Positions 15,272 to 30,073 of a stretch of 64,000 bases of DNA are shown piece after piece (within the stretch, counting starts at the first letter, position 1; every line of letters starts with the position of its first letter). Both the position numbers and the translations under genes were made by a program. The notes beneath the pieces are model-generated. The model made no database searches and was not told the DNA's origin. It worked only from the letters and a program-made list of their open reading frames with translations. The stretch is taken from the NCBI GenBank assembly GCA_026004495.1, contig BPJG01000001.1, positions 70,470 to 134,469 of the forward strand, given 5' to 3'. The stretch comes from Candidatus Parcubacteria bacterium. GTDB taxonomy: Bacteria; Patescibacteriota; Minisyncoccia; UBA6257; HR35.

Positions 15272-17161
15272 ATGTATAAAGAAAAAAATAAAAAAGAAAA
15301 AAGGAAAAGTGAATCAAGAAAAAAGGAAAATTTCTCTCAATTATTAAATCAAGAAATTTTGTCATTTAAAAATTTTAATGAATTCAATCCAACGCAAAAT
15401 ATTTTTGAAGTTAATTTAATGGAAAAATATATAATTAGGGAAATAAAAGGAGAAGATACTTTATTGCTAAGAAAAATTACTGATACAGAAGATTTAATCG
15501 ATGATAAAGAAACTGAAATAATCGAAGTTTTAAGTTTAAATTTTCCTGAAAGCGAAGAATACAAATTTCCAATAGAATACTGGATAAATTTATGGATAAA
15601 ATATGGCGGATGGATAGATCTTAATAATCTACCTCAAAAAAATGAGCTTTCAATAAAAGAAGCCAGAGAATTTTTTAGTAAAATTCCTTCAAAAACTGAA
15701 GTAATTTTTGATTATTATTTTTCTACTGAAGAAACATTATATAACTTTTGTAAATATAAATCCCAGCATTATTTATCAAGATATATTAGTTTCTTAAATA
15801 TCCATTTAGAAAACTTTAATTATGATATTGTAGGGATTAATTTAGATTATGAAAGATTTTTAGCCCTAAAAAGATATAAATTATTTGGCCGACCGATTCC
15901 TCTTGAAATTCTAAGCTTAGAAGAAATGAATTATTTATTAAGAAATGAAAGATTAAAAGAAGAATACCTTAGTAAAACAACAAAAAGAACATTTAATTGT
16001 GATTTAAATATACAAAATCCAACTTCAAATCAATACGCCGGAACTACAAGAATTATATATACAAAATTAAAAAATCCAGAATATTATCCTTATCACATTT
16101 TTTTAGGAAATCCTTCTGAAGAAGAAATAATAGAATATATTAAAGTATTATTAATTAAGAACTTAGTTTCATCATTTACCCAAAATCAATTTGATGAAAA
16201 TACAATAATTCAAAATTTAATTTTCAATTGTCAATTATATAAAATTTTAAAATCTGAAGATAAAATAATTCTTTTACCAACTGTTGCTACAATTCCTACA
16301 GCTTTTTTATTTAAATGGCTATTAAGGTATACAAAAAAAGAACTTATTAAAAGAGGTAGAGAAGATTTAGCAGAAAAAATTGTTATTCCTAAATTTTTAT
16401 TCATCAATAGTGAAAGTATATACTTAAGAGAAAATCTTAGTAATGAAGGAATTATGAATCAAATATTTCAAAATTTAAAAGAAGGATTAACAACTAAAAC
16501 ATTAGATGAAAAATTACAAGAACTAAAAAAAGAAATTGAAGAGAAGGGAAAAAATGAAGAAGAAAAGAAAAAATTAAATTTTTTAAAATATATTATCGAA
16601 TTTTCTTTGAATCTAAAAAAAAGATTGTATATAGTTAATAAAGAGTTATTTGATGATCTAAATATTGATAACCTAAGACAAAAATTATCAGAATTAAAAA
16701 TTTCTTTTTTAGATGATGCCACAGGAATGAAAGCTACATATTTTTTGTCCTATACATCTGCTTATTTGGCTATCTTAGATATATTAAAAGATAAACTTAA
16801 GAATGATTGGGATAAAATAAGAGATGAAATTTATGATATTTTGGAAAGGGAAATAATGCCCATTCAATTTACAGCTAATTTAGAATCATTAGATTATCAA
16901 ACTATTTATAATCAAAGTGCTAATAGATTTATTATTACAGAAAGATTGTTTATTGAATTACTTCCAATATTTAAAAGAAAAAAAGAAAAAAAGTCAGAAA
17001 ATCCAGAAATTATTTTAGAAAAACCAGATATAAAAACAGAAAAAATTTTGCACGACTTTAATACAAAAAAAATAGAAATATTAAAAGAAATATCTAAATA
17101 TTTATCTCCATTTTTAGCTGACTATATAATCACTTACCCAAATTTAGTTATCCCGAATTAA
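15272..17161 (+). CDS. Large hypothetical protein with a K/E-rich N-terminus
   Basis: 629-aa ORF with no recognisable motif. Confidence 0.4.
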   Translation: MYKEKNKKEKRKSESRKKENFSQLLNQEILSFKNFNEFNPTQNIFEVNLMEKYIIREIKGEDTLLLRKITDTEDLIDDKETEIIEVLSLNFPESEEYKFPIEYWINLWIKYGGWIDLNNLPQKNELSIKEAREFFSKIPSKTEVIFDYYFSTEETLYNFCKYKSQHYLSRYISFLNIHLENFNYDIVGINLDYERFLALKRYKLFGRPIPLEILSLEEMNYLLRNERLKEEYLSKTTKRTFNCDLNIQNPTSNQYAGTTRIIYTKLKNPEYYPYHIFLGNPSEEEIIEYIKVLLIKNLVSSFTQNQFDENTIIQNLIFNCQLYKILKSEDKIILLPTVATIPTAFLFKWLLRYTKKELIKRGREDLAEKIVIPKFLFINSESIYLRENLSNEGIMNQIFQNLKEGLTTKTLDEKLQELKKEIEEKGKNEEEKKKLNFLKYIIEFSLNLKKRLYIVNKELFDDLNIDNLRQKLSELKISFLDDATGMKATYFLSYTSAYLAILDILKDKLKNDWDKIRDEIYDILEREIMPIQFTANLESLDYQTIYNQSANRFIITERLFIELLPIFKRKKEKKSENPEIILEKPDIKTEKILHDFNTKKIEILKEISKYLSPFLADYIITYPNLVIPN

Positions 17162-18715
17162 CAAGCTAACAAAAAATTTACTTCCCCTACCTTCGCCTTC
17201 TGATTCGGCCCAAATTCTGCCTTGATGAGCTTCAACTAAATTTTTAACAATATAAAGACCTAAGCCAGTACCTCTAATTTCTTTTTTAATTGAAGGATCA
17301 CGAACAAATTCACCAAAAAGCTTACTTTGTAATTCTTTTGACATTCCAATTCCAGAATCACTAACACAAATTATTAATTCATTATTTTGTTTATAAACAC
17401 TTACCTTAACCCATCCTTGAGGAGTATATTTAATAGCATTATCAATTAAATTTTGTATGACTTGAGAAAATCTTAATTTATCAACTTTCAAAATTATTTG
17501 CTCAAGATTAGTTTCAAGACTTAGCTCTAAATTCTTTTCTTTGGCTAAAATAGTAAAATTATTTAAGATTTCTTTAATCAAACTAATAATTTCAACTTCC
17601 TCAAAATTAAGGTCCATTTTACCTTCTTCAATTCGTCGATAATCCATAAATTGTTCAATTAAAACCAAAAGCTTATCAACTGAATCTTTAATTTTTTTGG
17701 CAAAATCTTTTGCTTGTTCCGGCACATTTTCAATTCCATCAGCAATTAATTCAGCATAGCCTTTAACAACAGCCATCGGTGCTTTTACCTGATGCGACGC
17801 AAACGAAAGAAACTCCGATTTAATTCTATTTAATTTTTCCAATTTTTCTCTTAATTCAACTTCTTTTCTTACAGATTGTATAGTTATTAAAGAAACAATT
17901 AATATGAAAATAAATATTATTATTCTAATTAAAATTTCGATAAAATTAATGCTTATTAATATTTGGAATGCTGTTAAAATTAATAATATACTAATTAAAA
18001 TATCAATTAAAATAAATTTAATATTTAAGAATTGATAACGAACTATTGCTAAAAAAGTAAGTAAAATTAGGGGTATAGAATATAAAATACCAAATTGAAT
18101 ATATTTAGCGTTGCCAAATACATTAGGAAATATAAAATTAAAAATTATATGTAAGGTGAAAGTAACCAAAGCTCCGATAAATATTAAGATGGCGGAATAT
18201 TTTAGATTTGTCTCTTTAACAGAATAAATTTTTTTAATAAAACCAACAAAAAAGCTAATTAACAAACCTATTGTGGTTATACCAAATAATACTATACCAA
18301 TATTAGTTTTTACGCTTCCTATAGTGCCGTCAGGTTTAAATGAAATAATTTTTTCGAAAACTAACGGCGTTAATGTGAGTATCGAAACAAAAATAGTAAG
18401 TGGTAATAAAACATATTTAAAAGTTTTAGAATAATTAAAAGAAATATTAGGAAAAGCATAATACAAATTAAATATTGAGAAAGCGTACCAAATAGCAAAA
18501 AACATGTGTATCCTTAAAAAAATAAGTGCAAGGTTATTTAAATGCGGTTGATTGTATAAAAAATTGAAAATACCCCATAAAATAGTGCTTAGACTTAAGA
18601 GTAAATATGCAAAATTAGTAGCACCTTTTCTATTTTGGTTATAAATTATAAAACCTAATACTCCCATAGCACTAGCTACCCAACCTAAGATTATAAATAT
18701 GAAATTTTGGCTCAT
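17144..18715 (-). CDS. Sensor histidine kinase with a ~7-TM N-terminal domain
   Basis: H-box FLSFASHQVKAPM and HATPase_c GTGLGLYIVKNLVEAHQGRIWAESEGEGRGSKFF. Its start overlaps the upstream MTase stop (ATGA). Confidence 0.8.
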   Translation of the reverse strand: MSQNFIFIILGWVASAMGVLGFIIYNQNRKGATNFAYLLLSLSTILWGIFNFLYNQPHLNNLALIFLRIHMFFAIWYAFSIFNLYYAFPNISFNYSKTFKYVLLPLTIFVSILTLTPLVFEKIISFKPDGTIGSVKTNIGIVLFGITTIGLLISFFVGFIKKIYSVKETNLKYSAILIFIGALVTFTLHIIFNFIFPNVFGNAKYIQFGILYSIPLILLTFLAIVRYQFLNIKFILIDILISILLILTAFQILISINFIEILIRIIIFIFILIVSLITIQSVRKEVELREKLEKLNRIKSEFLSFASHQVKAPMAVVKGYAELIADGIENVPEQAKDFAKKIKDSVDKLLVLIEQFMDYRRIEEGKMDLNFEEVEIISLIKEILNNFTILAKEKNLELSLETNLEQIILKVDKLRFSQVIQNLIDNAIKYTPQGWVKVSVYKQNNELIICVSDSGIGMSKELQSKLFGEFVRDPSIKKEIRGTGLGLYIVKNLVEAHQGRIWAESEGEGRGSKFFVSLLIRDN

Positions 18716-19464
18716 TTCTTTATGATTATTAAAATATACCTTGATCTGAAAGTATTTTTTAGATCTTTAAAGTCAATACCTAAATTTTTATATTTTTCTT
18801 TAATTTTTCTAGTAAGTCTTCTAATAAAGAGATAATATTTCTTGATCCCGATTTTTTTTAAAATTTTTTTTATTTCTGATGGTAAATAAGCTGCTCGAGC
18901 TGAATAATAAATTAATTTTTTACTTAGATTATCAGGCGGTATAACCATTTTTAAAAGATAATAAGGTACATCTCTTCTTAAATCTTGAATATAAATTAAA
19001 CTATTTTGTTTTGTCACCCTTAGCATTTCTTTTATTGCTTTAGAAGTATTTTTAAATTGATGCAAACTATCTTTACACACAACAATGTCAAAATAATTAT
19101 TAGGAAAATTTAATTTATGAATATCATCTGAGATAAATTTTGTATTTTTGCAACCCTTACAGTTTTTCTTTGCCAATTGAAGTGCAAATTTAGTGTTGTC
19201 TATTCCGATAATTAAAGCATTTGGAAACCTTAAAGCAAGCTCTTTGCATAAAAACCCAGGACCACAACCTACATCAAGAATTTTAATTTTTTTATTGGTA
19301 TCTATTTTTGTTTTGGCAAATTCAATTAAATTATCAACAAGCGGAATTATCCACTTTTTATAATTTATTGTTGACATTTTCTCAAATTCTTTATGCTCAT
19401 TAATACCCATTTCTTTAGGTTCGGGAATCCTCTTTTTAAAAAATAGTTTTACTTTATTACCCAT
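18712..19464 (-). CDS. Class I SAM-dependent methyltransferase
   Basis: Motif I ILDVGCGPGFLCKEL and post-I IIGIDN. Confidence 0.75.
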   Translation of the reverse strand: MGNKVKLFFKKRIPEPKEMGINEHKEFEKMSTINYKKWIIPLVDNLIEFAKTKIDTNKKIKILDVGCGPGFLCKELALRFPNALIIGIDNTKFALQLAKKNCKGCKNTKFISDDIHKLNFPNNYFDIVVCKDSLHQFKNTSKAIKEMLRVTKQNSLIYIQDLRRDVPYYLLKMVIPPDNLSKKLIYYSARAAYLPSEIKKILKKIGIKKYYLFIRRLTRKIKEKYKNLGIDFKDLKNTFRSRYILIIIKK

Positions 19465-20987
19465 TTTTGTTTAATACCTGCCTTAAAATAAATTGGATCT
19501 TCGTAGGGGTGAAGGAAAATTTCTGGTTCTAATTGTTTTTTATATTTTTCTGAAGCCGTTGAATAAAGATGATTATATTCTGTTGAATGTTTAATTAAGG
19601 AGTTTACTACTTCTTTTTTAATTCGTTCTTTTAATTTAAAAGCCGGTTTTATATTCTTTTTCATCTCTATATGAATATGCAATTTTTGATTGTAATTTTT
19701 ATCATAGACAACTTGCATTGTAAATTTACCTGTAATATATTTTTGTAGTTCTGATTTTAATAAAGCTTGTCTAATATATTCAGGATATAAAATAATTCCA
19801 AACAAGGATACAGTAAAGTCAGATCTTTCATAAACATATACGAATGGCAATTTAAGAATTTTATCTTTTATTTTCAACTTCTCAGATTCTTTAAAGATAT
19901 CGATGCCTACTTCTTTTAATCTTTTTATCATTTCATCAAAATAAATAACCCCTCCATAATCAGGGAAACTATATCTTAGAATAGGAATTGAATCTCCATG
20001 TCCCGAGGCCAAGATTAAGCCATCTTTTTCTTCAAACCAAACAATATAAGGATGGTATTGAGCTAAAGTAGGAGTTCTGGTAGCGTCTCTAAAGAGATTT
20101 CTAAAAACTTTATCTTTTTCAACAGCAATGTGCCTTATTAGGTTGGAAAAAGCTGTTTCATGTGCCATAGTTCCAAGTTCAACTGTACCATAAATATTGA
20201 TATTATCATTAAGCATATTTTCAAGATTGACCTTATTAGCGATATACTTTCTAAAGCTTTCAGGAAAGCTTTCAGCAGCATTTAAGATTCTTATTTTGAA
20301 TTTTTTAAATTGAACCCCGGCTGATACTGCTTCGTCGACTAAATCCTTGACAGAAGGAGGATAACCAACAAGAATTATTTGATCGTAATAAAATGATAGT
20401 TTTTGGAAAGTTTTTAATATTAATTCTTTATTTACTCCTATAGGAGCAACTGTTAATGGATATTTTTCGCTGAGTCTGTAGTAAACATAATAATTATGTA
20501 ACCCCCCAATCCATATACCTAATCCAAAGCTCAAAATAACTAAAGTATTAAATTTATTAATACCCCATTGATTTAAAAAGGCAGTTTCTAGTACATACAA
20601 TCCCTGTTCATCCAAATTTTCTCCTCTAATAAAATAAAAAGGCTCACCAGTAGAGCCCGAAGTTGCTGAAATTGTTGTTAGATTTAAATTTTCATTTGGA
20701 TAGAGTTGTTGATAAGGATATTGGCGAAGATAATTATTTTTATTCATAATTGGTAATTTAGCTAAGTCTCTAAAACCAGTAATTTCTCGATAATTAATTC
20801 CATTTTCTTTTAAGAATTGTTTATAAGCTGGTGTTGTTTCAATGGTAAATTTTACTAGTCTATCTATTTGTTTTTTGCCTAAATTCAACCAATAATCAGG
20901 TGGTCGTGTTTTTAATTCCTTCAATCTTTTATCTATGTTTTTGGGATATTTAAAATATATAAATTTTTTGTCCATTATGTTTCCCAT
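19449..20987 (-). CDS. PaaK / coenzyme F390 synthetase-like adenylate-forming ligase
   Basis: TISATSGSTGEPFYF (the SSGTTG-type AMP-binding loop) and PaaK-like N-terminal context. Confidence 0.65.
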   Translation of the reverse strand: MGNIMDKKFIYFKYPKNIDKRLKELKTRPPDYWLNLGKKQIDRLVKFTIETTPAYKQFLKENGINYREITGFRDLAKLPIMNKNNYLRQYPYQQLYPNENLNLTTISATSGSTGEPFYFIRGENLDEQGLYVLETAFLNQWGINKFNTLVILSFGLGIWIGGLHNYYVYYRLSEKYPLTVAPIGVNKELILKTFQKLSFYYDQIILVGYPPSVKDLVDEAVSAGVQFKKFKIRILNAAESFPESFRKYIANKVNLENMLNDNINIYGTVELGTMAHETAFSNLIRHIAVEKDKVFRNLFRDATRTPTLAQYHPYIVWFEEKDGLILASGHGDSIPILRYSFPDYGGVIYFDEMIKRLKEVGIDIFKESEKLKIKDKILKLPFVYVYERSDFTVSLFGIILYPEYIRQALLKSELQKYITGKFTMQVVYDKNYNQKLHIHIEMKKNIKPAFKLKERIKKEVVNSLIKHSTEYNHLYSTASEKYKKQLEPEIFLHPYEDPIYFKAGIKQKWVIK

Positions 20988-22072
20988 TGTATAAAGGGTG
21001 GTTTTTTAACCGAGATGGCCGATGGTGGATCAGCTTTTCCTATTCTCATTACTGCGGTTAAAATATAATTATTTTTATCTACTTTAAATAATTCACATAA
21101 TTTTTGATAAGAATTATTAATAATGTTTAGCTCTTCTTCATTAAAAATATTTTTGTTTCCAAAATTAGCCTGTTGCCAAAAGAAAAATATTCCTGTAATT
21201 AGATGACAAGCTAAGTTTAACTTTGTAGCTCTAAGCCAAATATTTTCTATAAGCCTACCAAGATTTATAAATTCCTTATCATTATTAATAATAGAAAAAC
21301 CAATCATTGTGTTAGTAGCTGAATACATTTTAACTGTGTCTTTATAAATAGTTCTTACGATTCCTAATTTCTTCATTAATTTAAAGAAAGTAGTATTCCT
21401 TAAAAGTTTAATCATTAATATTTGAGGTGGTTTAAACTCCATTGTTTTGATATATAATCCCCTTTCTCCCTTTTGAGCTTTTTCTTTATCAAAAATGATC
21501 TCATTAAAAAGCAATTTTCTAAGATGGTCATTGTTAAAATTCAAATAAGTGTCATAAGCCAATAAACTGCCAATTTCATTTATTAAATCACCTTCAATTA
21601 TTGAAACCTTACAATTAGAGAAAAAATTAACTTCATTTAATAAATATTTTTTTTCTTCTTCTGTTAAGGCCTCTTTTTTGTAATGGTTTCTATTGGTTGT
21701 TCTTTTTTTAATATATTCATATAAGTCATCTTTCTCTTCAACGCCTGACTTTTCTAAAATAATTGAGGCTATGATATTATTTTCAAATTTCTCATTTATT
21801 GTTATTATGGGATTTAATTTATAATGCTTGGCTGTAATTACTATATTTTCAATTAAAGCCCCACAAGCAATTAAAGTACCTCTATTATTGTAATTTAATA
21901 TTGGATGATCTTTTTCTGGTAAATATCTTATTTTTATCGTATTTTGAGAAGCAATAAATTCCCATGGTTGAGAATTGCTTCCAGATGGAGCATTTAAGCT
22001 TTCTTTTAAAATATTTTCTATTAAAGATTTTTCAGGCATTTTTATTAATAATATTTTACAGCATATAATCAA
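20975..22072 (-). CDS. Nitroreductase-superfamily protein, double length (SagB/ThcOx-like dehydrogenase candidate)
   Basis: LNAPSGSNSQPWEF near the N-terminus and a second RTTNR-type motif mid-protein. 365 aa against ~200 aa for a simple nitroreductase. Confidence 0.6.
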   Translation of the reverse strand: MIICCKILLIKMPEKSLIENILKESLNAPSGSNSQPWEFIASQNTIKIRYLPEKDHPILNYNNRGTLIACGALIENIVITAKHYKLNPIITINEKFENNIIASIILEKSGVEEKDDLYEYIKKRTTNRNHYKKEALTEEEKKYLLNEVNFFSNCKVSIIEGDLINEIGSLLAYDTYLNFNNDHLRKLLFNEIIFDKEKAQKGERGLYIKTMEFKPPQILMIKLLRNTTFFKLMKKLGIVRTIYKDTVKMYSATNTMIGFSIINNDKEFINLGRLIENIWLRATKLNLACHLITGIFFFWQQANFGNKNIFNEEELNIINNSYQKLCELFKVDKNNYILTAVMRIGKADPPSAISVKKPPFIQWET

Positions 22073-22075
22073 TAT

Positions 22076-23188
22076 TTACAATTTTTTTAATTTTTTGAGG
22101 AAATATTTTTGTTGTTTTTTAAAATCTTTAGGTAAAATCGATAACATTTTATCAATATTTAATAAAATTCTTCCTTCTTTAATTTTTCCACCAAGAATAA
22201 TTTTTTTTGATAAATAAGAAACAGCTACACCGCATAAAGTTGCAGCATTACCTAATTGTGGCCAAGAATAAATTGTTTTTCCAACTTCTATTAATGAATA
22301 TAACATTCTTGGCGTTGCTAAATTAGCGCCTGCAATTTTGGCTGTAATCTTTATCATATCTTGAGGATTTAAATTTTTTAGATTTTCGGAAGATAAATTT
22401 CCCAAAAGACCATGAAGAATAGGATAATTAGGATTTAAATCGTATCTTTCGATGTCAATTAAAATATTATCGGCATGGTCTGTTGCCATAATTACAGGAA
22501 TTCTATATTTTTTAGCTTTCTCTCTTATTTTTATTTTGAGATAGAGATTATCCATTTCTTCAATTAAAACATCAATTTTAGGTTTAAGTAAAAAATTATC
22601 TATATTTTTATAAGTAATACCTTCTGAATAAATTTTCAAGCTTGCATAAGGATTTATTTCATAAATTTGTTGAGCACAATAAATTGCTTTATTAATTCCA
22701 ATCGACGAAATAGGATAACGTAATCTATTTAAATTAGATAAAGAAATTTCATCATTATCAGCTATTTTCATATATCTAGCTCCACCTATCATTGCGAGTG
22801 TTAAGGCTATATGAGAACCCACACTAAGACCTGCTATCCCTATTCTTGATTTATAAAACTTTATTTGTTCATCTTTGGTTAGAAGGTAAATATTTCTCGC
22901 AGTTTTAGTTTCAAAAAATTCTTTTTCATCTAAACAGTGAATTAATTTTTTATTCCAGGGGAAATATATCCATTTACCAACTTTATCTAATGTTTTATTT
23001 TTTAATTTTTTCTTTAAAAAATTTTCAAAATCTTGTTGATATTCTTTGATAAATTTATATTTAGGATTTTTAATTAAAAAATAATCTTCTAATTGTTTTT
23101 CGTAATTATCTATGATTTCTGATGGGTTTAATCTCTTTTTTAATAGCTCTAAACTTATATGATGAGCGTTAAAAATTAATGGCTTCAT
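22076..23188 (-). CDS. E1-like ThiF/MoeB/HesA family adenylyltransferase with a ~100-aa N-terminal extension
   Basis: IGIAGLSVGSHIALTLAMIGGARYMKIADNDEISLSNLNRL, a Gly-rich nucleotide loop plus the D-x-D...SNLNR motif. Confidence 0.75.
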   Translation of the reverse strand: MKPLIFNAHHISLELLKKRLNPSEIIDNYEKQLEDYFLIKNPKYKFIKEYQQDFENFLKKKLKNKTLDKVGKWIYFPWNKKLIHCLDEKEFFETKTARNIYLLTKDEQIKFYKSRIGIAGLSVGSHIALTLAMIGGARYMKIADNDEISLSNLNRLRYPISSIGINKAIYCAQQIYEINPYASLKIYSEGITYKNIDNFLLKPKIDVLIEEMDNLYLKIKIREKAKKYRIPVIMATDHADNILIDIERYDLNPNYPILHGLLGNLSSENLKNLNPQDMIKITAKIAGANLATPRMLYSLIEVGKTIYSWPQLGNAATLCGVAVSYLSKKIILGGKIKEGRILLNIDKMLSILPKDFKKQQKYFLKKLKKL

Positions 23189-23212
23189 TGTCTAATTTGA
23201 ATATTATTTTAA

Positions 23213-23223
23213 ATTATATCACA
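23213..23223 (-). promoter_or_regulatory. Extended -10 element (TGATATAAT on the minus strand), about 25 nt upstream of the E1-like gene start
   Basis: Reverse complement of plus-strand 23213-23223 is TGTGATATAAT. Confidence 0.4.
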
Positions 23224-23272
23224 ATCAATATAGTTTTTAAAAAATTATTTATTTTTTACTTATTTATTTCTC

Positions 23273-23288
23273 AATTTCTTAAGAAATT
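23273..23288. promoter_or_regulatory. 16-bp perfect palindrome AATTTCTTAAGAAATT, a candidate operator upstream of the operon promoter
   Basis: Perfect dyad symmetry read directly from the sequence. Confidence 0.35.
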
Positions 23289-23427
23289 AAGAAAAACAAA
23301 ATTTTCTAATTTAATACATACGATGTCTTATTAATTTTTTTCATTATTCATCTCTATAGCAGAAAATAATGAAAATGCTTTGGAGTTTTGGAAAAATAAT
23401 AAAAACTTTGAATAAGGAGGTAAGACC

Positions 23428-23580
23428 ATGAGAGCCGTTCGAGTTGAAGAGCTAGAAATAATTTGTCACGAAGTAAGGCGCCGGATGTTCCAAACCATCC
23501 TCAATGCGGGAAGCGGTCATCTCTGTAGTTCGTCTTCCTCTGTGGAATGCATTTTTAGAAGTCTACAGAAATTTATAAAT
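23428..23580 (+). pseudogene. Transketolase / DXP-synthase N-terminal fragment (~45 aa of homology) behind a strong AAGGAGGT SD, then degenerate
   Basis: MRAVRVEELEIICHEVRRRMFQTILNAGSGHLCSSSSSVECIF resembles the SGHxGxSLSxxEI motif of transketolase N-termini. The ORF stops after 76 aa. Confidence 0.4.
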
Positions 23581-23893
23581 CTATATGTCTTCTGTTTAAT
23601 TTGTTTTGGTAATGTAAAATCCCATTCAGAATCTATACCCGGAGAACTGAAAGTATAAAGAAGTGATAGTCTGCTGTTTATAGAACTAGTAATTTCAAGA
23701 AGATGAGATAGAGTCATCCCATATCCGATAGAAGCAGAAACTGGTTTCTGGCTATTGTAATTGATCCCAAAAAGAAGTATTCTGCTGTCGATAAATTGTG
23801 TGGTAGTAAAATTGCTTCCGTGTATATTCTTTTGCCTACCCAGTTTTGTAGATGCCTCTCGACAAAAAATATATCAACGGCTAAAATTTATTG

Positions 23894-24723
23894 CTAAATT
23901 GAATAAAGCTCGTTGGCAATTGATGAAACCTTTTCATTTGGGTTTTTTATTTTGTGTAAAAACTCCTTGAAAACACCTCGCGCATTTGACTGATTGATTT
24001 CTAAATTTTTTAAGTAAGGGTATATTGCATTAAAAATACTAAGAAATTCTGAGTCAAACATTTGATCTATAACGCGGTCGCTCATGTTTGTACCAATTCA
24101 ATTATATCTCTCAAATGACCATTCGTCGTCTAGTTTTTCTAATGAGTCAGCAACCATGGCTTTTGCACCTGGAGGCGAAAATTTTTTTCATTTAGTTGCT
24201 TTACAGCTGGATCTTTGAATAACGGGTTAGGATAATTTAATGATTTTTCTCCGTTATGTTTAACGATAAATCTTTTCTCCTTGTAGATATCAAAGACCGA
24301 ACGAACGAATTCCTGATACAATTTGTTGTTTGTATTGAAGTAATTGTCGTAATCACAGCTTATCTGAATACTTTTCAAATCTTTCAGAATTACATCGCTA
24401 AAATAATTCAGAACGCTTATTGGTTCAGTAAATTTATACAAGTGACTTTTCGGGATCTTATAAAAATTGAAAATAAGATCTAATGTTCTTTGATCTGTAT
24501 CATTTAGTTTTCGTTTTTGTAGAAAATTTGATACTGCATTGGCAATTTTAAAAACGGTAGAACCGCTATAATGCATGCAAATTGGGAATCGAACAGAAAA
24601 TCCCTGTTTTCGTTTCCATCTAGCCCAAACGTCAGCCAATACAAAAATCCTTGCATGACTTAAACTCAGCGGGCACACCGGATGCATGTGAGCAATATCA
24701 ATAAAATATTTTTTATCTTCCAT
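23894..24723 (-). pseudogene. N-terminal fragment of a class I aminoacyl-tRNA synthetase (MetRS-like), split by a frameshift/stop near 24086-24139, with a degenerate HIGH motif
   Basis: LADVWARWKRKQGFSVRFPICMHYSGST matches MetRS ADVWVRYQRMRGHEVNF. CDYDNYFNTNNKLYQEFVRSVFDIYKEKRFI matches MetRS YDNYHSTHSEEN...GFI. Only ~260 aa are present, against more than 500 expected. GC is higher than the surroundings. Confidence 0.5.
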
Positions 24724-24726
24724 AGC

Positions 24727-25341
24727 TTATATAAATAACGGTTTTATTTTTTCAAAAATTTTTCGGTGCCCAATTTCGTTAGGATGAATACCATCTTCGG
24801 AAAGCAACCCTAGATAATCAGACCTTAGCCATTCTTCAGCAATACTCAAAAAGGCGATATTCTTTTTTTTACACTCATCGCCAATGATCTTTTCATACGT
24901 TACGATTTTTTCATTCAAAAAATATACATTGTCCAATGGTGTTGTTTTTCGTTCGTCAACCGGGGTTAAACCAACGAAAATAATGTGATTGGTGTATTTA
25001 CTTGCGTTCTTAATGAGAAGTCTTATATTGTTTTTGAAGCCTTCTGCATTTGTAATAGGGTTGTCTATGGATTCGACGCATTTTGTATCGTTGATACCTA
25101 CTGCGAAAATGATAGAGGAATGATCGTCGGGATAAATTTTTCTACATCTTGCTTCAGCCTCAATTGGAAGTCGTTTAATAACTTCATTGGTTGATTCACC
25201 CGAGATGCTTAAATTATGGGTAAGAGTAAAATCTTTATCTTTTTTATCAAATTGTTGAATTAAAAGAGAGGGCCAAGATTTTATTTTTTCCACTTTTCTA
25301 CCCGCCGCTATGCTGTCTCCAAAAATTAGTATGTTGTACAT
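24727..25341 (-). CDS. SGNH/GDSL-family hydrolase
   Basis: N-terminus IFGDSIA (GDS motif) and C-terminus DGIHPN (catalytic His block). Confidence 0.68.
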   Translation of the reverse strand: MYNILIFGDSIAAGRKVEKIKSWPSLLIQQFDKKDKDFTLTHNLSISGESTNEVIKRLPIEAEARCRKIYPDDHSSIIFAVGINDTKCVESIDNPITNAEGFKNNIRLLIKNASKYTNHIIFVGLTPVDERKTTPLDNVYFLNEKIVTYEKIIGDECKKKNIAFLSIAEEWLRSDYLGLLSEDGIHPNEIGHRKIFEKIKPLFI

Positions 25342-25412
25342 TAATTATTTTAAATTAAGTTTAATTTTTTATTTGTACGAATTATCTAATATAATAATGA
25401 CCTAATTATAAC

Positions 25413-26177
25413 TTAAAAATCAATAAATTTAAAAAGGAAAGGGAAAGATGGTGATCCAAGAAATATAGAAGTGCGTAAGTCCTCAAATCGCACCCCTTTT
25501 TCATTACTTTGAATGATTAACTTATATTTTTTGAGGTTCCAATAAGTCTTTATAAAGTTTCTTATTGCTTCTCGTCTGATTTGTTCTATAATCTTTTCAT
25601 AATAATTATCTAGAAATAATTTCTTAAAATAAAATAAAGCGTAAAGATTATCAAGAAAATAATCTCGAGGATCATCCATAACCAAATTGTTTCTATTAAT
25701 CAAATATTTTTTAATTAACTTAATTTCTTCAACTTCAGGTAGAATTTTTATTTCATTAAAAATAATATTTAAAATCTCCCTAATATTTTTTAGATCACTG
25801 CTAAATTCTATATAAACATAACCAAAATTATTGCCAGCTAGATAAGATCCAGAATAAACATCATAAATCAGACCATTTTCTTGTCTTAAAATTTTAAATA
25901 ATCTACTATTTTGCGGACCAGCTAATGTATTTAAAATAACCCCTTGTAAAATTGAATTCTCAACCCCAGTTTTTCTACTAATAGAAGGAATAATTAGACT
26001 AACACTTATGGTTTTTAGGTTGTGGTTGTGATTAAAAGCAAAATTTTTATTAAACCAATCTTTAGAATTAATGTGGATATCAATAGCTTTGGGATTTTTC
26101 TCAATATTATCAAATTGTTTATTCAATATATTTTTTAATTTATTAATCTTAAAGCCCCCTGTTATTGCTAAAATCAA
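25413..26177 (-). pseudogene. C-terminal (inactive-domain) half of an M16 family peptidase. It starts at TTG and the N-terminal catalytic half is absent
   Basis: ILNTLAGPQNSRLFKILRQENGLIYDVYSGSY..GNNFGYVYIEFSSDLKNIREI matches the M16 C-terminal domain consensus (GGGMSSRLFQELRE..GLAYSVYS). Confidence 0.45.
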
Positions 26178-26497
26178 TTGACTTCTCGAAATAATCTAAT
26201 ACAGTTACTACTGTCCCTTCTTTCGCCATCAAGGAAGATTCGTAACCTCCGCCACAACCGCATTCTATGCATTTTAAATTTATAAAATTTCCTATTATCG
26301 ATTTATAGTGATTATTTAATGCTTCGTTACAATAAAAATCCCATTTATCATTAATTTCAAATATATCGCCATGTTTTTTATAATAATTTAATCATTTTTT
26401 CCCAGTGATTATCCCAAAAGCGTCTTTCATCTAAAGCAAAGTCTTTTCGATGAAAAAATAATAAATCTATTATTTTTGTTAGCCATCTGTTAATCAT
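26170..26497 (-). pseudogene. Frameshifted N-terminal fragment of a class I SAM-dependent methyltransferase
   Basis: Two frames together read MINRWLTKIIDLLFFHRKDFALDERRFWDNHWEK... and ...CIECGCGGGYESSLMAKEGTVVTVLDYFEKSI (motif I), then terminate. Confidence 0.4.
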
Positions 26498-26860
26498 TTT
26501 TTTATTAATCTTTTTATTATTTTTAGGGGCCTAAAATTTCTACTTATTTCTTCAAAATTTTTTTTACATATATCTCTATTATCTTTTGGGTAGTTACAAA
26601 GATAAATATCTAAAGTAAGGTAATTCAATTCAGGCCAAGTATGAATAGTAATGTGAGATTCAACCAAGCTAATCGGATCAGTGAAACCACCAGCAGAAAA
26701 TTTATAATAAAAGGATCCTAATTCGTGTATATTATATTTTTTAACAATGTTGTGAATGTATTTTTTCGTTTGATTTAAAGATTTCAGTTCTTCAACTTCT
26801 TTTGTGGTAATTTCTCCTAATATATGAAGTCTGGTAAATGGTCCGTTCTTGTTTTATTCA
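26494..26860 (-). pseudogene. Second S-adenosylmethionine decarboxylase (speH-type) copy with a 1-nt frameshift near its 5' end
   Basis: LVESHITIHTWPELNYLTLDIYLCNYP carries the AdoMetDC signature. The ATG at 26858-26860 is in the +1 frame relative to the body (MNKTRTDHLPDFIY* versus NGPFTRLHILGEITTKE). Confidence 0.5.
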
Positions 26861-26885
26861 TACACATCCTTTTATTGAATGATAA

Positions 26886-27920
26886 CTAATGTGTTCCTTT
26901 TTCTACAATTTCAAAAAGGTTTTTTGAGCAATCAATTACGGCCTTAACACCTAATGGTATTGTAAGTATAGGATCAGTATGGCCTATATCAACATTAGCA
27001 AGAATTGGAAATTTATAACCAGTAGTTCTTATTTTAACTAATCTTATGGCTTCTTTTTTTTCTTTATCAGAATAACCAAAAAACCTTCCAATTATCATTC
27101 CTTTGACTTTTTTAAAAATACCAGATAACTCAAGATCAGTTAAATAAGAATCTATATTTTCTATTCTTTCTCCTCTTGTAAAGTCATTATCACTCTCTGG
27201 TATCTCCCAAAAAAGAATTTTGTTAGTAAAATCAGGCCAATATTTTGTCCCTCTTAAATGCATCATTGAAGTAATACAGCCACCCAAAATTGGTCCTTCT
27301 ACTTTACCTTGTTTTAACCATTGCCAACCTTTGTTCTTTTTCATTTTTCTTGGTCTTCTTAGATCTTCTTTTTTAAACCAATCAAGAATTTCATAGGTCC
27401 AACAAGAAGAAGGCTTAATCACACCGATAGGTTTGTCTTCCATTAATGCTTTTTTAAAATATTCTTCAGTATAAGGGAGTATTCTTGGGTTTTCTGCAAA
27501 TTGAGTAAGAGCTGCTGGCCCATAAAATGTTATTAAATTTGCCTGGGTATAAAACGCAAAATGTAAAACTGTAGCGTCGGAATAACCAACAAAAATTTTT
27601 GGGTTTTTCTTTATGAGATTAAAATCTAAATATTTTAAAACTTGATTAGAGTGATTTCCTCCTATAAAACAAATTATTGCTTTAACTTCTTTATCTTTAA
27701 AAAATAAATTAATATCTTCTGCTCTTTCCTTAGGCGAACCGGCAGTATAACCAGTAATATTTAAAGCATTTTTACCAATTTTAACTTTAAATCCCATATT
27801 GTTTAACATTTTAATAGCTCTTTTTGTTCTGTGTGGTACTAAACCAGCAAGTGGGGCTGATGGACTTATTAATCCGATTGTATCTCCTAATTTAAGTTTT
27901 GGTGGTTTAATTAATTTCAT
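26886..27920 (-). CDS. LD-carboxypeptidase (peptidase S66, LdcA/MccF family)
   Basis: LKLGDTIGLISPS... layout and length (344 aa) are typical of S66. Confidence 0.75.
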   Translation of the reverse strand: MKLIKPPKLKLGDTIGLISPSAPLAGLVPHRTKRAIKMLNNMGFKVKIGKNALNITGYTAGSPKERAEDINLFFKDKEVKAIICFIGGNHSNQVLKYLDFNLIKKNPKIFVGYSDATVLHFAFYTQANLITFYGPAALTQFAENPRILPYTEEYFKKALMEDKPIGVIKPSSCWTYEILDWFKKEDLRRPRKMKKNKGWQWLKQGKVEGPILGGCITSMMHLRGTKYWPDFTNKILFWEIPESDNDFTRGERIENIDSYLTDLELSGIFKKVKGMIIGRFFGYSDKEKKEAIRLVKIRTTGYKFPILANVDIGHTDPILTIPLGVKAVIDCSKNLFEIVEKGTH

Positions 27921-27933
27921 ACCTATTTTAAAG

Positions 27934-28227
27934 CTATTGGAAAATTATGGATGAATTTGACCCTCTACACATAGGAATGGTTTTGTTTCCCAGATAAAAG
28001 GTAATTTTAAAATTACCTGGATAAATCTTTCTATCCCCATTCCCCAACCGCAGTGAATTTTTTGTTTTTTTACTACTCTTGAATCGATATATGGTTGATA
28101 ATCTGTATAACATAGCCCCTTTATATATAACAAAATCTTTGTCTTTAATAATATCTAAAATTACTCCTCTTAATTCATTGTAGGCTATATCAGTGCAGTC
28201 AGTTATAAAAACAATTCGCTTTTTCAT
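27934..28227 (-). pseudogene. Chimeric remnant: DUF62 (SAM hydroxide adenosyltransferase) N-terminus in one frame and a class II aaRS (Asp/Asn/Lys-type) motif-3 C-terminus in the overlapping frame
   Basis: MKKRIVFITDCTDIAYNELRGVILDII resembles DUF62 TDFG..D.YVG..KGVIL. The overlapping 62-aa frame has HCGWGMGIERFIQVIL, matching class II motif 3 (GGFGLGLERLV). Confidence 0.4.
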
Positions 28228-28229
28228 AA

Positions 28230-29027
28230 TTAAATTAAATTTAAATTAATTATTCGTTTTTTATCAAAAAGTTTTTTAAAATCGTGTCCAATCTTGTCCA
28301 TCAAAAAAACTTTTGCTTTAGAACATTTTGTTCTTTGAAAAAAAATAGAACTGGTGTAGTTAATTGTTTCATCTGATTTACCGTGAAATATAATGATGTT
28401 AGGGTAATTTTTATCCATTTTGATAAAAGAGTCAGCCTCCTTGCCGGAAAAATATTTATCCCAACATTTATTTTCTATTCCCCTGAAAGCAAATTTATAA
28501 CCTCTTCTAAGAAATTCGAGGAAAGATATATTGAATTCATAAAATGCTTCTATATTTTTTGGGTTTTCTAGATATGCTAAAACCTCTTTTTTATGTAAAA
28601 ATAGTAAAGGAGCAAATAATAAAACATTCTTTACATCATTTTTGGATACTTTTGCAGAGATAACCGGATTACCAGCAAAACTGTAACCAATTAAATGTAG
28701 ATTTTTGTAATTCCAATATATCTCTTTATTGTCAAAAGTTTTTATCCCTTTTTTCTTTTTTACGAACTCAACTGCTAATTCTACAGTTTTTTTGCAGTTC
28801 TTATAGGTAAAACTGCCTCCACTTAACCAGCTTCCCAGATAATAAACGCTGAAGAAAGCAGTTTTTTTATCTACCTTATCAATAAAAAAATCTTTATCGA
28901 TTATTTGCGGTAACCCAGGGAAATAAATAAAAATATTTTCGACATTTACCTTGCCATTGTTAAAACTATCTTTTGTATAGTAGAAATGCAGTGCTACATT
29001 TTTATAGATAAAAAGTTCTAATTCCAT
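28230..29027 (-). CDS. Alpha/beta-hydrolase fold protein
   Basis: GYSFAG nucleophile elbow, FHGKSDE and GHDF blocks. Confidence 0.6.
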   Translation of the reverse strand: MELELFIYKNVALHFYYTKDSFNNGKVNVENIFIYFPGLPQIIDKDFFIDKVDKKTAFFSVYYLGSWLSGGSFTYKNCKKTVELAVEFVKKKKGIKTFDNKEIYWNYKNLHLIGYSFAGNPVISAKVSKNDVKNVLLFAPLLFLHKKEVLAYLENPKNIEAFYEFNISFLEFLRRGYKFAFRGIENKCWDKYFSGKEADSFIKMDKNYPNIIIFHGKSDETINYTSSIFFQRTKCSKAKVFLMDKIGHDFKKLFDKKRIINLNLI

Positions 29028-29890
29028 ATTTTTTTAAGCTAATAAATATTTTTCCCTTTACCGCATCGATAATAATTTTTTTATTTCTATAGTTATCAAT
29101 TTTTCCTTTGATTATTTTTGATTCTACAAGACAAAAAATATTAAACTCTCTCGCTATGACTGCTATGTGTAAAAGAATGCCTCCAGTTATTATTAATCCA
29201 TTAATAAATGGAATTTTTTTAATCAACGAAATGTCCAGATTGCGTTTTACTAAAACAATATCATTTTATATTTATTTTATCATAATCTTCAATGTTTTTA
29301 ATTATTTTTAAAAATCAACTTGCGATACCCTTGTAAGCAATATTTCCTGTTCCTATGATTTTACTTTTGTCAAAAGTATAATTTATAATTTGGGGATATT
29401 TGTTCAGAGTTGTAATATTTCTACTTTGGAAAATATAAATTTCCTTACCGTCCCATCCCCATTCAATATCTAAGTATTCCCAAATATACCTTCAAGATTT
29501 AATGCTATCTTTGACAATTTTTTCAAAAATTTAGATTTCAGGTTATTTATTTTGGCTTTTTCAATTACCTTGATAATTGGTTTTTTATGACAACTAACAA
29601 CAGAATCTCCCAAGTCTTGGGTATATTCTACAATCATCTTATTGATATTTTGATTAAATGGATCGGCAGTAAATATCACTCCCGCAACACCTACGGGAAT
29701 CAATTCTTGAATGGCAATAGCCATACTTTCAAATTCCAGTCTGATATCATTTATTCGCGCGTATATTTTAGCATTATCACTAAATAAAGATCGATAACAT
29801 AATATAATTGCCTTTATAATATTTTCTTCCCCTTTTATATTTAAGAAGCTTGAATATTGACCAGCAAAGCTGAAAAAAGGGGGGATCCTC
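29002..29890 (-). pseudogene. PEP synthase (ppsA-like) N-terminal and phospho-His region, broken by several frameshifts
   Basis: SFAGQYSSFLNIKGEENIIKAIILCYRSLFSDNAKIYAR (PpsA SFAGQQETFLNV...ASLFNDRAISYR), MAIAIQELIPVGVAGVIFTADP (PpsA MAVGVQRMV..SGVMFS) and GGILLHIAVIAREFNI (phospho-His loop GGRTSHAAIIARE) lie in three different frames. Confidence 0.5.
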
Positions 29891-30073
29891 TACCCACACT
29901 TTTCTTTGATTATTTTTATTTTTTTGGATTTAGTTCCTACTTCTAAATTATCATAATCTTCTATAAGTTTTATATTATGGTAAATGAAATGTTTATCACA
30001 CATTAGCTTTAAAACCTCTTCTTTTAAAAAGTTCCTTTCATCTTGGATTAATCAAATATTATTTTATAGGTCC

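What the first reader, a model, noticed from the sequence alone, without database searches (positions are those of the whole stretch)
23894..24723. MetRS-like N-terminal fragment with a degenerate HIGH motif
The fragment keeps the ADVW.R..R..G..V.F and YDNY...GFI blocks of methionyl-tRNA synthetase. The HIGH signature reads SLSHAR instead of HxGH, and the ORF is broken near an A7 run (about 24185). It is either a dead copy or the remnant of a non-catalytic aaRS-like paralog. Together with the class II aaRS C-terminal fragment at 27945-28133, this gives two independent aaRS remnants in one island.
Basis: partly seen in the sequence, partly recalled or inferred. Interest (0 to 1): 0.5.

Follow-up and report, generated by a model that had tools for sequence, protein, structure and literature searches.

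The report
Dead copy of LeuRS-like paralog
The fragment is a recently broken gene from a small, apparently undescribed family of shortened leucyl-tRNA-synthetase-like proteins found in ultra-small bacteria and archaea; the odd "HIGH" motif is normal for that family, not a sign of decay.

Summary
The protein is not MetRS-like. Its best matches are archaeal-type leucyl-tRNA synthetase (NCBIfam 1.6e-26, against 1.7e-5 for MetRS). The window comes from a Parcubacteria (CPR) genome.

Intact relatives of 450-499 aa exist. They form a distinct family with about 25-30 representatives at 50% identity among 1.84 billion proteins, and 21 loci in 185,579 species genomes. Most are Patescibacteria, with a few Nanoarchaeota.

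The family lacks the CP1 editing domain and the C-terminal domain. In nearly all members the HIGH position reads S-[LI]-[SDN]-H. The KMSKS position reads [IV]DSASRG or RMSASRG.

The window copy is a pseudogene. It carries:
- a 1-nt loss in the A run;
- in-frame TGA, TAG and TAA codons;
- a second frameshift;
- a deletion of about 2.9 kb that removed its last 82 or so codons, its methyltransferase partner, and most of a transketolase gene (a remnant sits at 23443-23553).

dN/dS against intact relatives is 0.06-0.21, the same range as between intact copies, so the inactivation is recent. The function of the family is unknown.

The parts
24178..24723 (-). Segment A of the pseudogene. It corresponds to residues 1-183 of the intact family member P0009 and covers the first half of the Rossmann fold. 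The annotated 194-aa ORF runs on to a TAG at 24139-24141.
   Evidence: tblastn with P0009 gives 74% identity. NCBIfam archaeal LeuRS gives E 1.6e-26 over model positions 31-176 of 946.
24649..24666 (-). SLSHAR, at the position of the class I HIGH signature. Canonical archaeal-type LeuRS has H[IVL]GH here.
   Evidence: Read directly from the sequence. The motif table of 33 short CP1-less relatives (32 family members plus P0137) and 14 canonical LeuRS is.
24182..24188 (-). A7 homopolymer where one base has been lost. An A8 run would give ...NEKKFSPPGAK... as in intact relatives. This is the first frameshift.
23747..24181 (-). Segment B, residues 183-327 of P0009. It replaces the CP1 region with a short linker and includes the start of the second half of the Rossmann fold. 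It contains in-frame stops: TGA at 24098-24100, TAG at 23894-23896 and TAA at 23888-23890.
   Evidence: tblastn gives 75% identity, with stops aligned to sense residues.
23532..23753 (-). Segment C, residues 326-404 of P0009, in a third frame. A second frameshift lies at about 23747-23760. The KMSKS position reads VSASIG (23724-23741). Homology ends at about 23532, and residues 405-486 are missing.
   Evidence: tblastn gives 43% identity. This region is also variable between intact members.
23443..23553 (+). Remnant of the transketolase N-terminus (residues 4-40). It marks the junction of a deletion of about 2.9 kb that removed the C-terminus of the LeuRS-like gene, the 264-aa methyltransferase partner, and most of the transketolase gene.
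   Evidence: tblastn with the L004 transketolase gives 70% identity over 37 aa, E 4.6e-8. The ancestral order GDSL > LeuRS-like > MT > <TK is seen in L004, L010, L013-L015 and L018.
24727..25341 (-). Intact GDSL/SGNH hydrolase gene immediately upstream, with a 3-nt spacer. It is the conserved upstream neighbour of this clade of the family.
   Evidence: Pfam Lipase_GDSL_2 gives 9.7e-19. It is conserved in L001, L003, L004, L010 and L013-L018.

Best explanation
Window 23532-24723 (minus strand) is a recently inactivated pseudogene. It belongs to a conserved family of about 470-aa LeuRS-derived paralogs, here called LRSL, found in Patescibacteria (CPR) and Nanoarchaeota. The family derives from archaeal-type LeuRS. 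It has lost the CP1 editing domain and the C-terminal tRNA-binding domain. Its ATP-binding signatures are remodelled: HIGH has become S[LI][SDN]H in nearly all members (three sampled keep the first His), and KMSKS has become [IV]DSASRG or RMSASRG. In this genome the gene was destroyed by several events: a 1-nt loss in an A-run, three nonsense substitutions, a second frameshift, and a deletion of about 2.9 kb that also removed its downstream methyltransferase partner and most of a transketolase gene. What is shown: the homology, the family-wide motif states, the lesions, the deletion junction, and the conserved neighbourhoods. What is inferred: that the copy is non-functional here; that the intact protein is not the housekeeping LeuRS, because it is rare and has been lost repeatedly; and that it acts with its SAM-methyltransferase or radical-SAM neighbours on an amino-acid- or nucleotide-derived substrate, possibly without canonical ATP-dependent adenylation.
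For: Source and identity. P0001 is 100% identical to the ORF and comes from Candidatus Parcubacteria bacterium KatS3mg094. LeuRS similarity is shown.

The family. Intact relatives of 450-499 aa were found and aligned. In a profile search of 1.84e9 representatives, family members score 260-650 bits and canonical LeuRS score 200 bits or less. The genome scan found 21 loci. An NJ tree places the family as a single group with the window copy inside clade A.

Loss of domains. The PDB alignment covers LeuRS residues 32-179 and 446-786 only.

Lesions. See; the transketolase remnant is. Relatives are broken independently and in different ways: L003 has multiple frameshifts and a stop at other positions, L001 is truncated at residue 308 next to a GIY-YIG gene, and L002 is truncated at residue 192.

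Timing. dN/dS against intact copies is 0.06-0.21, compared with 0.09-0.19 between intact copies. The window copy departs from the consensus at 4 of the 59 family columns that are at least 90% conserved, compared with 0-2 in intact clade-A members.

Partners. The methyltransferase-like 264-266-aa gene overlaps the 3' end of the LRSL gene and occurs on the same contigs. Its AF2 model resembles small-molecule and peptide methyltransferases. Clade B members sit next to a MoaA-like radical SAM gene, an IMP-cyclohydrolase-like gene, and a PP-loop ATPase or a 198-aa methyltransferase.
Against: - The 194-aa N-terminal ORF is intact, has an ATG, is tightly coupled to the GDSL gene, and is annotated as a protein in NCBI.
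- Two relatives also end near residue 192, so a truncated product cannot be formally excluded.
- No read-level data were available to rule out a homopolymer sequencing error at the A7 run.
- dN/dS shows no clear relaxation of selection. The case for 'dead' therefore rests on the lesions, not on the substitution pattern.
- No function has been tested for any family member.
- Several strongly conserved polar residues suggest a working active site, so 'non-catalytic' is not established.
- I could not check the rest of the genome for a canonical leuS.
Confidence: 0.88

Rival explanations
1. The 194-aa N-terminal ORF (24139-24723) is a functional truncated protein. It would have been selected as a stand-alone half-Rossmann module after the rest of the gene was lost.
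For: The ORF is intact and sits 3 nt after the GDSL stop codon. Similar ORFs of about 192 aa occur in P0002 and P0005. dN/dS of segment A is low, 0.06-0.21.
Against: - The downstream sequence is still 75% identical to intact relatives in another frame, so the break is recent. The low dN/dS reflects history before the break.
- The truncation points differ between relatives, at residues 170, 192, 194 and 308.
- The fragment ends in the middle of the fold, before the second half of the Rossmann domain (secondary structure).
Confidence: 0.05
2. The gene is intact in the organism, and the breaks are sequencing or assembly errors.
For: The first frameshift lies in a 7-nt homopolymer, which is a classic error site.
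Against: - There are three different in-frame stop codons at positions that are sense codons in relatives.
- There is a second frameshift outside any long homopolymer.
- The last 82 or so codons and the partner gene are missing.
- A transketolase N-terminal remnant abuts the end of the homology.
- Several other gene remnants lie within 6 kb.
Confidence: 0.03
3. It is a decayed copy of a genuine housekeeping synthetase (MetRS or LeuRS), and its HIGH motif degenerated after the gene was inactivated.
For: Pfam's only hit is the MetRS-type catalytic domain PF09334.
Against: - SLSH or SIDH at the HIGH position is present in intact relatives that are only 28-85% identical to each other.
- The ancestral protein was about 480 aa and had no CP1 domain.
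- Bit scores are far below the curated LeuRS and MetRS cutoffs: 92.6 against 677, and 23.8 against 336.
Confidence: 0.02
4. LRSL is a minimal but genuine LeuRS used for translation in some CPR and DPANN organisms, and this genome simply lost a redundant second copy.
For: - Neighbouring genes are often housekeeping synthetases: ValRS, CysRS, MetRS and ThrRS.
- Clade B keeps RMSASRG, which is close to the KMS[AS]SKG of some full-length LeuRS.
- The amino-acid-site motifs HxSG, D.S and E.H are conserved.
- CP1-less LeuRS exist naturally, for example in Mycoplasma mobile (3ziu).
Against: - The first His and the Gly of HIGH are replaced in nearly all members.
- The C-terminal domain, which in archaeal-type LeuRS binds tRNA-Leu (established knowledge from the 1wz2 complex), is absent.
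- The family is very rare, at 21 of 185,579 species genomes.
- It is repeatedly pseudogenised or truncated in close relatives.
- It is tightly linked to methyltransferase and radical SAM genes.
Confidence: 0.1

Closest known systems
Archaeal/eukaryotic-type leucyl-tRNA synthetase (Pyrococcus horikoshii LeuRS, PDB 1wkb/1wz2; NCBIfam NF008957, TIGR00395)
   Same: It is the best sequence and fold match. The profile E-value is 1e-49, and Foldseek gives TM 0.83-0.84 normalised to the query. The class Ia Rossmann core and the helical anticodon-binding-type domain are shared. Motifs such as (F/W)HxTG ~ HYSG, SDS ~ FDSE, and P.D...HL are recognisable.
   Different: The family has no CP1 editing domain (LeuRS residues 180-445 or so are unmatched) and no C-terminal domain (nothing matches beyond about residue 786). 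HIGH is replaced by S[LI][SDN]H, and KMSKS by [IV]DSASRG or RMSASRG. Bit scores are about seven-fold below the curated cutoffs.
LeuRS-I of Sulfolobaceae and LeuRS2 of Halobacteria (duplicated LeuRS with little or no aminoacylation activity; review PMC9437257)
   Same: These are LeuRS-derived paralogs that appear to have left canonical translation. LeuRS-I has a disrupted CP1 domain and a divergent C-terminus.
   Different: They are full-length proteins of roughly 900 aa or more that still form Leu-AMP or charge tRNA weakly. LRSL is about 470 aa, lacks CP1 and the C-terminal domain entirely, has altered HIGH and KMSKS motifs, and occurs in CPR and DPANN. The review lists no LeuRS-like protein class.
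Mycoplasma mobile LeuRS, naturally lacking CP1 (PDB 3ziu)
   Same: It is a naturally occurring LeuRS without the editing domain (hits).
   Different: It is of the bacterial type, is 637 aa long, and is a working synthetase. That it retains canonical signatures is from my own knowledge and was not tested here. The match to LRSL is much weaker (E 4.6e-12, TM 0.62).
Truncated class I aaRS paralogs with non-translational roles: MshC (CysRS-like), GluQRS/YadB (GluRS-like), and cyclodipeptide synthases (TyrRS/TrpRS-like)
   Same: The concept is the same: a class I catalytic core recruited to ligate an amino acid to a non-tRNA or non-canonical acceptor. Cyclodipeptide synthases have lost the ATP motifs and use aminoacyl-tRNA instead (established knowledge; MshC and YadB are listed in PMC9437257).
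   Different: The parent synthetases are different. There is no sequence relationship beyond the class I fold. No activity is known for LRSL.

Membership tests
Class I aminoacyl-tRNA synthetase (catalytically canonical) | HIGH signature (HxGH) at the start of the first Rossmann helix | tested here: not met
   The window reads SLSH (24655-24666). In clade-A relatives the same position reads SLSH, in clade B SIDH or SINH, and in a few members HVDH or HPAH. Canonical relatives have H[IVL]GH.
Class I aminoacyl-tRNA synthetase (catalytically canonical) | KMSKS loop | tested here: not met
   The window reads VSASIG (23724-23741). Clade A has [IV]DSASRG and clade B has RMSASRG. Caveat: some full-length LeuRS in the same search have KMS[AS]SKG.
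Class I aminoacyl-tRNA synthetase (catalytically canonical) | Rossmann-fold catalytic core of the class Ia type | tested here: met
   This was tested on an intact relative, P0009. The AF2 model has pLDDT 92 and pTM 0.92. The top PDB hits are LeuRS (TM 0.83) and then MetRS (0.65). The window copy is 74-75% identical to P0009 over residues 1-327.
Archaeal-type LeuRS (TIGR00395 / NF008957) | Score above the curated family cutoff | tested here: not met
   Scores are 92.6 bits against a cutoff of 677, and 72.7 against 648.5. The intact P0009 scores 124 against 677.
Archaeal-type LeuRS (TIGR00395 / NF008957) | CP1 editing domain inserted in the Rossmann fold | tested here: not met
   The profile-to-1wkb alignment jumps from LeuRS residue 179 to residue 446. 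The family has a linker of about 30 residues there.
Archaeal-type LeuRS (TIGR00395 / NF008957) | C-terminal tRNA-Leu-binding domain | tested here: not met
   The alignment ends at LeuRS residue 786 of 967. Family proteins end there.
MetRS (TIGR00398; Pfam PF09334) | Best match to MetRS models, above the curated cutoff | tested here: not met
   metG gives E 1.7e-5 and 23.8 bits against a cutoff of 336. PF09334 scores 25.9 bits, just above its domain cutoff of 20.1, but the LeuRS models score far better.
LRSL family (the CP1-less LeuRS-like paralogs of CPR and DPANN defined here) | Signature motifs P-[VIL]-C-P-[LI]-S-x-x-H, HYSG, DPMFD[SA]E and E[ER]HL[QK]NW | tested here: met
   The window has PVCPLSLSH, MHYSG, DQMFDSE (with a P to Q change) and VERHLQNW.
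LRSL family (the CP1-less LeuRS-like paralogs of CPR and DPANN defined here) | Uninterrupted ORF of 450-499 aa | tested here: not met
   The window copy has two frameshifts, three internal stops, and is missing the last 82 or so residues. It is a pseudogene of the family.
LRSL family (the CP1-less LeuRS-like paralogs of CPR and DPANN defined here) | Clade-A gene order: GDSL hydrolase > LRSL > 264-266-aa methyltransferase > <transketolase | tested here: inconclusive
   The GDSL gene is present and adjacent. The methyltransferase is absent. The transketolase is reduced to a 37-aa remnant at 23443-23553. This fits a deletion within the ancestral arrangement.

The most novel reading that the evidence does not exclude
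The intact LRSL proteins are a new class of aaRS-like enzyme. They would be a LeuRS core that has given up canonical ATP-dependent adenylation and tRNA-Leu charging. Together with a dedicated SAM methyltransferase (clade A and archaea), or with a MoaA-like radical SAM enzyme, an IMP-cyclohydrolase-like protein and a PP-loop ATPase (clade B), they would modify or build an amino-acid- or purine-derived molecule or an RNA. The genes would be shared as a cassette between CPR bacteria and DPANN archaea. The window would then record one of several independent recent losses of this accessory system.
Probability: 0.4. Interest if true: 0.65.

Novelty: new variant of a known kind. Interest (0 to 1): 0.42.

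Why it matters
In itself the window feature is one more pseudogene in a shrinking CPR genome. Its value is as a pointer. It led to a compact, well-folded, LeuRS-derived family with remodelled catalytic signatures and conserved partner genes. The family is restricted to episymbiotic CPR bacteria and Nanoarchaeota. A 2022 review of aaRS duplications lists no LeuRS-like protein class, and four full-text searches found no description of this family. If the family has a non-translational activity, it would add a new case of aaRS recruitment. It would also be a possible example of gene-cassette sharing between CPR and DPANN. Its repeated decay in close relatives gives natural knock-outs for comparative work.

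Tried and rejected
- MetRS assignment: rejected, because the LeuRS models score about 20 orders of magnitude better.
- Alternative genetic code (TGA read as an amino acid): rejected. All three stop codons occur in frame, neighbouring genes are intact under table 11, and two frameshifts remain.
- Anti-phage defence context: PADLOC gave no hits for LRSL or its partners, apart from generic radical-SAM and viperin similarity.
- The window's own 250-aa methyltransferase (18712-19464) as the displaced partner: rejected. It shares only a 48-aa SAM-motif match with the L004 partner, E 0.003.
- Relaxed selection in the pseudogene: not detectable by pairwise dN/dS, because dS is mostly saturated. The only hint is a small excess of changes at conserved columns.
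- AFDB fold search: the library was unavailable.
- Literature searches for LeuRS-like paralogs in CPR and DPANN found nothing specific.

Full report
**Observation.** On the minus strand, ORF 24139-24723 encodes 194 aa. It begins MEDKKYFIDIAHMHPVCPLSLSHARIFVLADVWARWKRKQGFSVRFPICMHYSGS and contains ...ISCDYDNYFNT.... The exception is 'GFI', which reads RFI here and GFI in relatives. The minus-strand A7 run is at 24182-24188. The window has 24% G+C. The ORF is 100% identical to 'hypothetical protein KatS3mg094_089' of a Candidatus Parcubacteria bacterium, on a 634-kb contig.

**What it resembles.** Pfam gives only a marginal MetRS-type catalytic domain hit (PF09334, 5.4e-6). NCBIfam places it with archaeal-type LeuRS: NF008957 at 1.6e-26 over model positions 31-176 of 946, and TIGR00395 at 1.7e-20. 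MetRS scores 1.7e-5 and ValRS 7.6e-5. All these scores are far below the curated family cutoffs. So the fragment is LeuRS-derived, not MetRS-derived, and it is not a bona fide LeuRS.

**Relatives and the ancestral gene.**
- The 194-aa query found seven close relatives at 70-85% identity. Every one that includes the N-terminus has SLSHAR (one has SLSYAR).
- One of them, the 308-aa P0006, reads straight through the window's frameshift and matches the window in a second frame.
- A JGI contig (L003) carries another multiply frameshifted copy. It allowed me to stitch together an ancestral sequence of about 482 aa.
- Searching with that sequence found intact proteins of 450-499 aa, from 85% down to 27% identity (alignment A1).
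- A profile of A1 hits P. horikoshii LeuRS (1wkb) at 1e-49, in two pieces covering LeuRS residues 32-179 and 446-786. The CP1 editing domain and the C-terminal domain are therefore absent.
- AlphaFold2 models the intact relative P0009 confidently, with pLDDT 92 and pTM 0.92. Foldseek ranks archaeal and human LeuRS first (TM 0.83) and MetRS next (0.65).

**The family.**
- In an exhaustive HMM search of 1.84 billion representatives, family members score 260-650 bits. A gap follows, and then canonical LeuRS of 850-1000 aa appear at 200 bits or less. That leaves roughly 25-30 clusters at 50% identity.
- A scan of 185,579 species genomes found 21 loci. They are in Paceibacterota, Saccharibacteria, Gracilibacteria, Shapirobacteria, CPR2 and a Nanoarchaeota archaeon, plus a few short contigs binned to other phyla. 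One further member sits on a contig with archaeal ribosomal and prefoldin genes.
- An NJ tree keeps the family as a single group apart from the sampled canonical LeuRS, and places the window copy inside the Parcubacteria clade.
- At the HIGH position the family has S[LI][SDN]H, and rarely HVDH or HPAH. Canonical relatives have H[IVL]GH.
- At the KMSKS position the family has [IV]DSASRG (the window's clade) or RMSASRG.
- A near-invariant Cys precedes the HIGH position (PVCPLS).
- Other active-site-region motifs are strongly conserved: HYSG, SCDY, DPMFDSE and E[ER]HL[QK]NW.
- The 'degenerate HIGH' is therefore a conserved family character and not decay.

**State of the window copy.** Compared with the intact P0009 (coordinates):
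- Residues 1-183 match 24723-24178 at 74% identity.
- A 1-nt loss in the A-run shifts the frame.
- Residues 183-327 match 24181-23747 at 75% identity. This stretch has in-frame TGA (24098-24100), TAG (23894-23896) and TAA (23888-23890) codons where relatives have sense codons.
- A second frameshift lies at about 23747-23760.
- Residues 326-404 match 23753-23532 at 43% identity. This region is also variable between intact members.
- Residues 405-486 are missing.

Directly against the end of the homology, on the opposite strand, 23443-23553 encodes residues 4-40 of a transketolase (70% identity to the L004 enzyme, E 4.6e-8). In intact relatives the gene order is GDSL hydrolase > LRSL > 264-266-aa methyltransferase-like gene > <transketolase. 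A single deletion of about 2.9 kb therefore explains three losses at once: the LRSL C-terminus, the methyltransferase, and most of the transketolase.

The lesions in L003 lie at different positions. L001 is truncated at residue 308 next to a GIY-YIG gene, and L002 at residue 192 next to unrelated genes. The gene is thus being lost repeatedly in this clade.

**Timing.** Pairwise dN/dS between the window segments and five intact genes is 0.06-0.21. Intact-versus-intact pairs give 0.09-0.19, and the neighbouring intact GDSL gene gives 0.065-0.107. dS is mostly saturated. The least saturated comparison (L015, dS 0.45) gives 0.21. The window copy departs from the consensus at 4 of the 59 family columns that are at least 90% conserved, against 0-2 in intact clade-A members. 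Together these results indicate purifying selection for most of the gene's history and a recent inactivation.

**Context and possible function of the intact family (inference).** I clustered the ORFs around 27 loci. The recurrent neighbours are:
- transketolase, 13 loci;
- a MoaA-like radical SAM protein, 13 loci (TIGR02668, 5e-33);
- an IMP-cyclohydrolase/MGS-like protein of 196 aa, 11 loci;
- the 266-aa methyltransferase-like protein, 9 loci, including both archaeal loci;
- GDSL hydrolase, 8 loci;
- a zinc-finger PP-loop ATPase, 5 loci;
- a 198-aa methyltransferase, 5 loci;
- housekeeping CysRS, ValRS or MetRS genes.

The 266-aa partner has only 14 database relatives, and these lie on the same contigs as LRSL. 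Its AF2 model (pLDDT 86) resembles small-molecule and peptide methyltransferases such as HvrF, JHAMT, Tam, BioC and BamL, not dedicated tRNA methyltransferases. PADLOC found no defence-system link.

The rarity of the family, its repeated loss, its altered ATP-binding signatures and its dedicated partners all argue that it is an accessory, non-translational aaRS-like enzyme. No activity has been tested. A 'minimal LeuRS' role is not excluded, and I put that at about 0.1.

**Comparison with known systems.** A 2022 review of aaRS duplications lists only two LeuRS duplicates: Sulfolobaceae LeuRS-I, which has a disrupted CP1 domain and forms Leu-AMP but does not charge tRNA, and haloarchaeal LeuRS2. 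It lists no LeuRS-like protein class. Four full-text searches found no description of a CP1-less, HIGH-less LeuRS-like family in CPR or DPANN. The closest analogies in concept are MshC, GluQRS and the cyclodipeptide synthases.

**The 'island'.** The second remnant (27945-28133) matches the last 55 or so residues of AsnRS or of the AsnRS-like asparagine synthetase A (NCBIfam 2.1e-5 and 9.8e-5). The same stretch of about 7 kb also holds:
- an AdoMet decarboxylase fragment (26494-26667, 2.9e-12);
- PEP-synthase/PigC-like fragments (29002-29724, down to 7e-10);
- a peptidase M16 C-terminal half without its N-terminal half (25413-26177);
- the transketolase stub.

This is a general zone of gene decay with slightly raised G+C (27-30% against 21-24% in most of the rest of the window). 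It is not an aaRS-specific island.

**Verdict.** The feature is a recently killed member of an apparently undescribed LeuRS-derived paralog family, and its unusual HIGH motif is ancestral to that family. The window element itself is ordinary, since it is a pseudogene. The family it reveals is moderately novel.

Noticed in passing
window 23443-23553 (+): A 37-aa remnant of a transketolase N-terminus (70% identity to the transketolase next to intact LRSL genes). It marks a deletion of about 2.9 kb. No other transketolase was seen in the window.
   Followed up: yes
window 27945-28133 (-), overlapping ORF 27934-28227: A 62-aa ORF matches the extreme C-terminus (the class II motif 3 region) of asparagine synthetase A (AsnRS-like) and of AsnRS (NCBIfam 2.1e-5 and 9.8e-5). 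A 97-aa ORF in another frame overlaps it and has no family hit. This is probably another deletion junction.
   Followed up: partly
window 25413-26177, 26494-26667, 29002-29724 (all -): More gene remnants: a peptidase M16 C-terminal (inactive) domain without the N-terminal half, a 57-aa AdoMet decarboxylase fragment (2.9e-12), and PEP-synthase/PigC-like fragments (7e-10). The 23.2-30.5 kb stretch is a zone of gene decay.
   Followed up: partly
window 17144-23188 (-): A co-directional run of genes with overlapping ends: a ThiF/E1-like protein (22076-23188) and a nitroreductase-like protein (20975-22072), which together match the two halves of the Rv1355c family (3.5e-97 and 7e-42); a PaaK-like adenylating enzyme (19449-20987); a class I methyltransferase (18712-19464); and a histidine kinase (17144-18715). 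It looks like an intact accessory operon lying next to the decayed zone.
   Followed up: partly
window 2073-3941 (+): A 622-aa NDH-2/pyridine-nucleotide-disulphide oxidoreductase-like ORF carries a PD-(D/E)XK nuclease (PDDEXK_3) domain at residues 197-309. It lies between two stretches of the oxidoreductase match.
   Followed up: no
window 20000-30000: G+C is 27-30% here, against 21-24% in most of the rest of the window.
   Followed up: no
L001 1809-2180: In one relative the LRSL ORF is cut off at residue 308, just after the HLQNW motif. A GIY-YIG nuclease gene follows immediately. This may be disruption by a mobile endonuclease.
   Followed up: no
L029 (Nanoarchaeota contig) and L011 (archaeal contig) compared with L004, L010 and L013-L018 (Paceibacterota and similar): The LRSL > 258-278-aa methyltransferase pair occurs both in archaeal (DPANN) contigs and in CPR bacterial contigs. 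Transketolase lies next to the pair in L029 and in most of the CPR loci. This suggests that a small cassette moved between the two domains.
   Followed up: partly
L013 compared with L014 and L015 (LRSL genes): Divergence between intact LRSL genes is mosaic. For L013 against L014, dS is 0.39 in residues 1-183 but saturated in residues 184-327. This hints at recombination between alleles.
   Followed up: no
P0137 (557 aa): A single, different CP1-less LeuRS-like protein with LSVGH at the HIGH position and a canonical KMSKSEGN. It branches next to the LRSL family in the NJ tree and may be an intermediate form.
   Followed up: no
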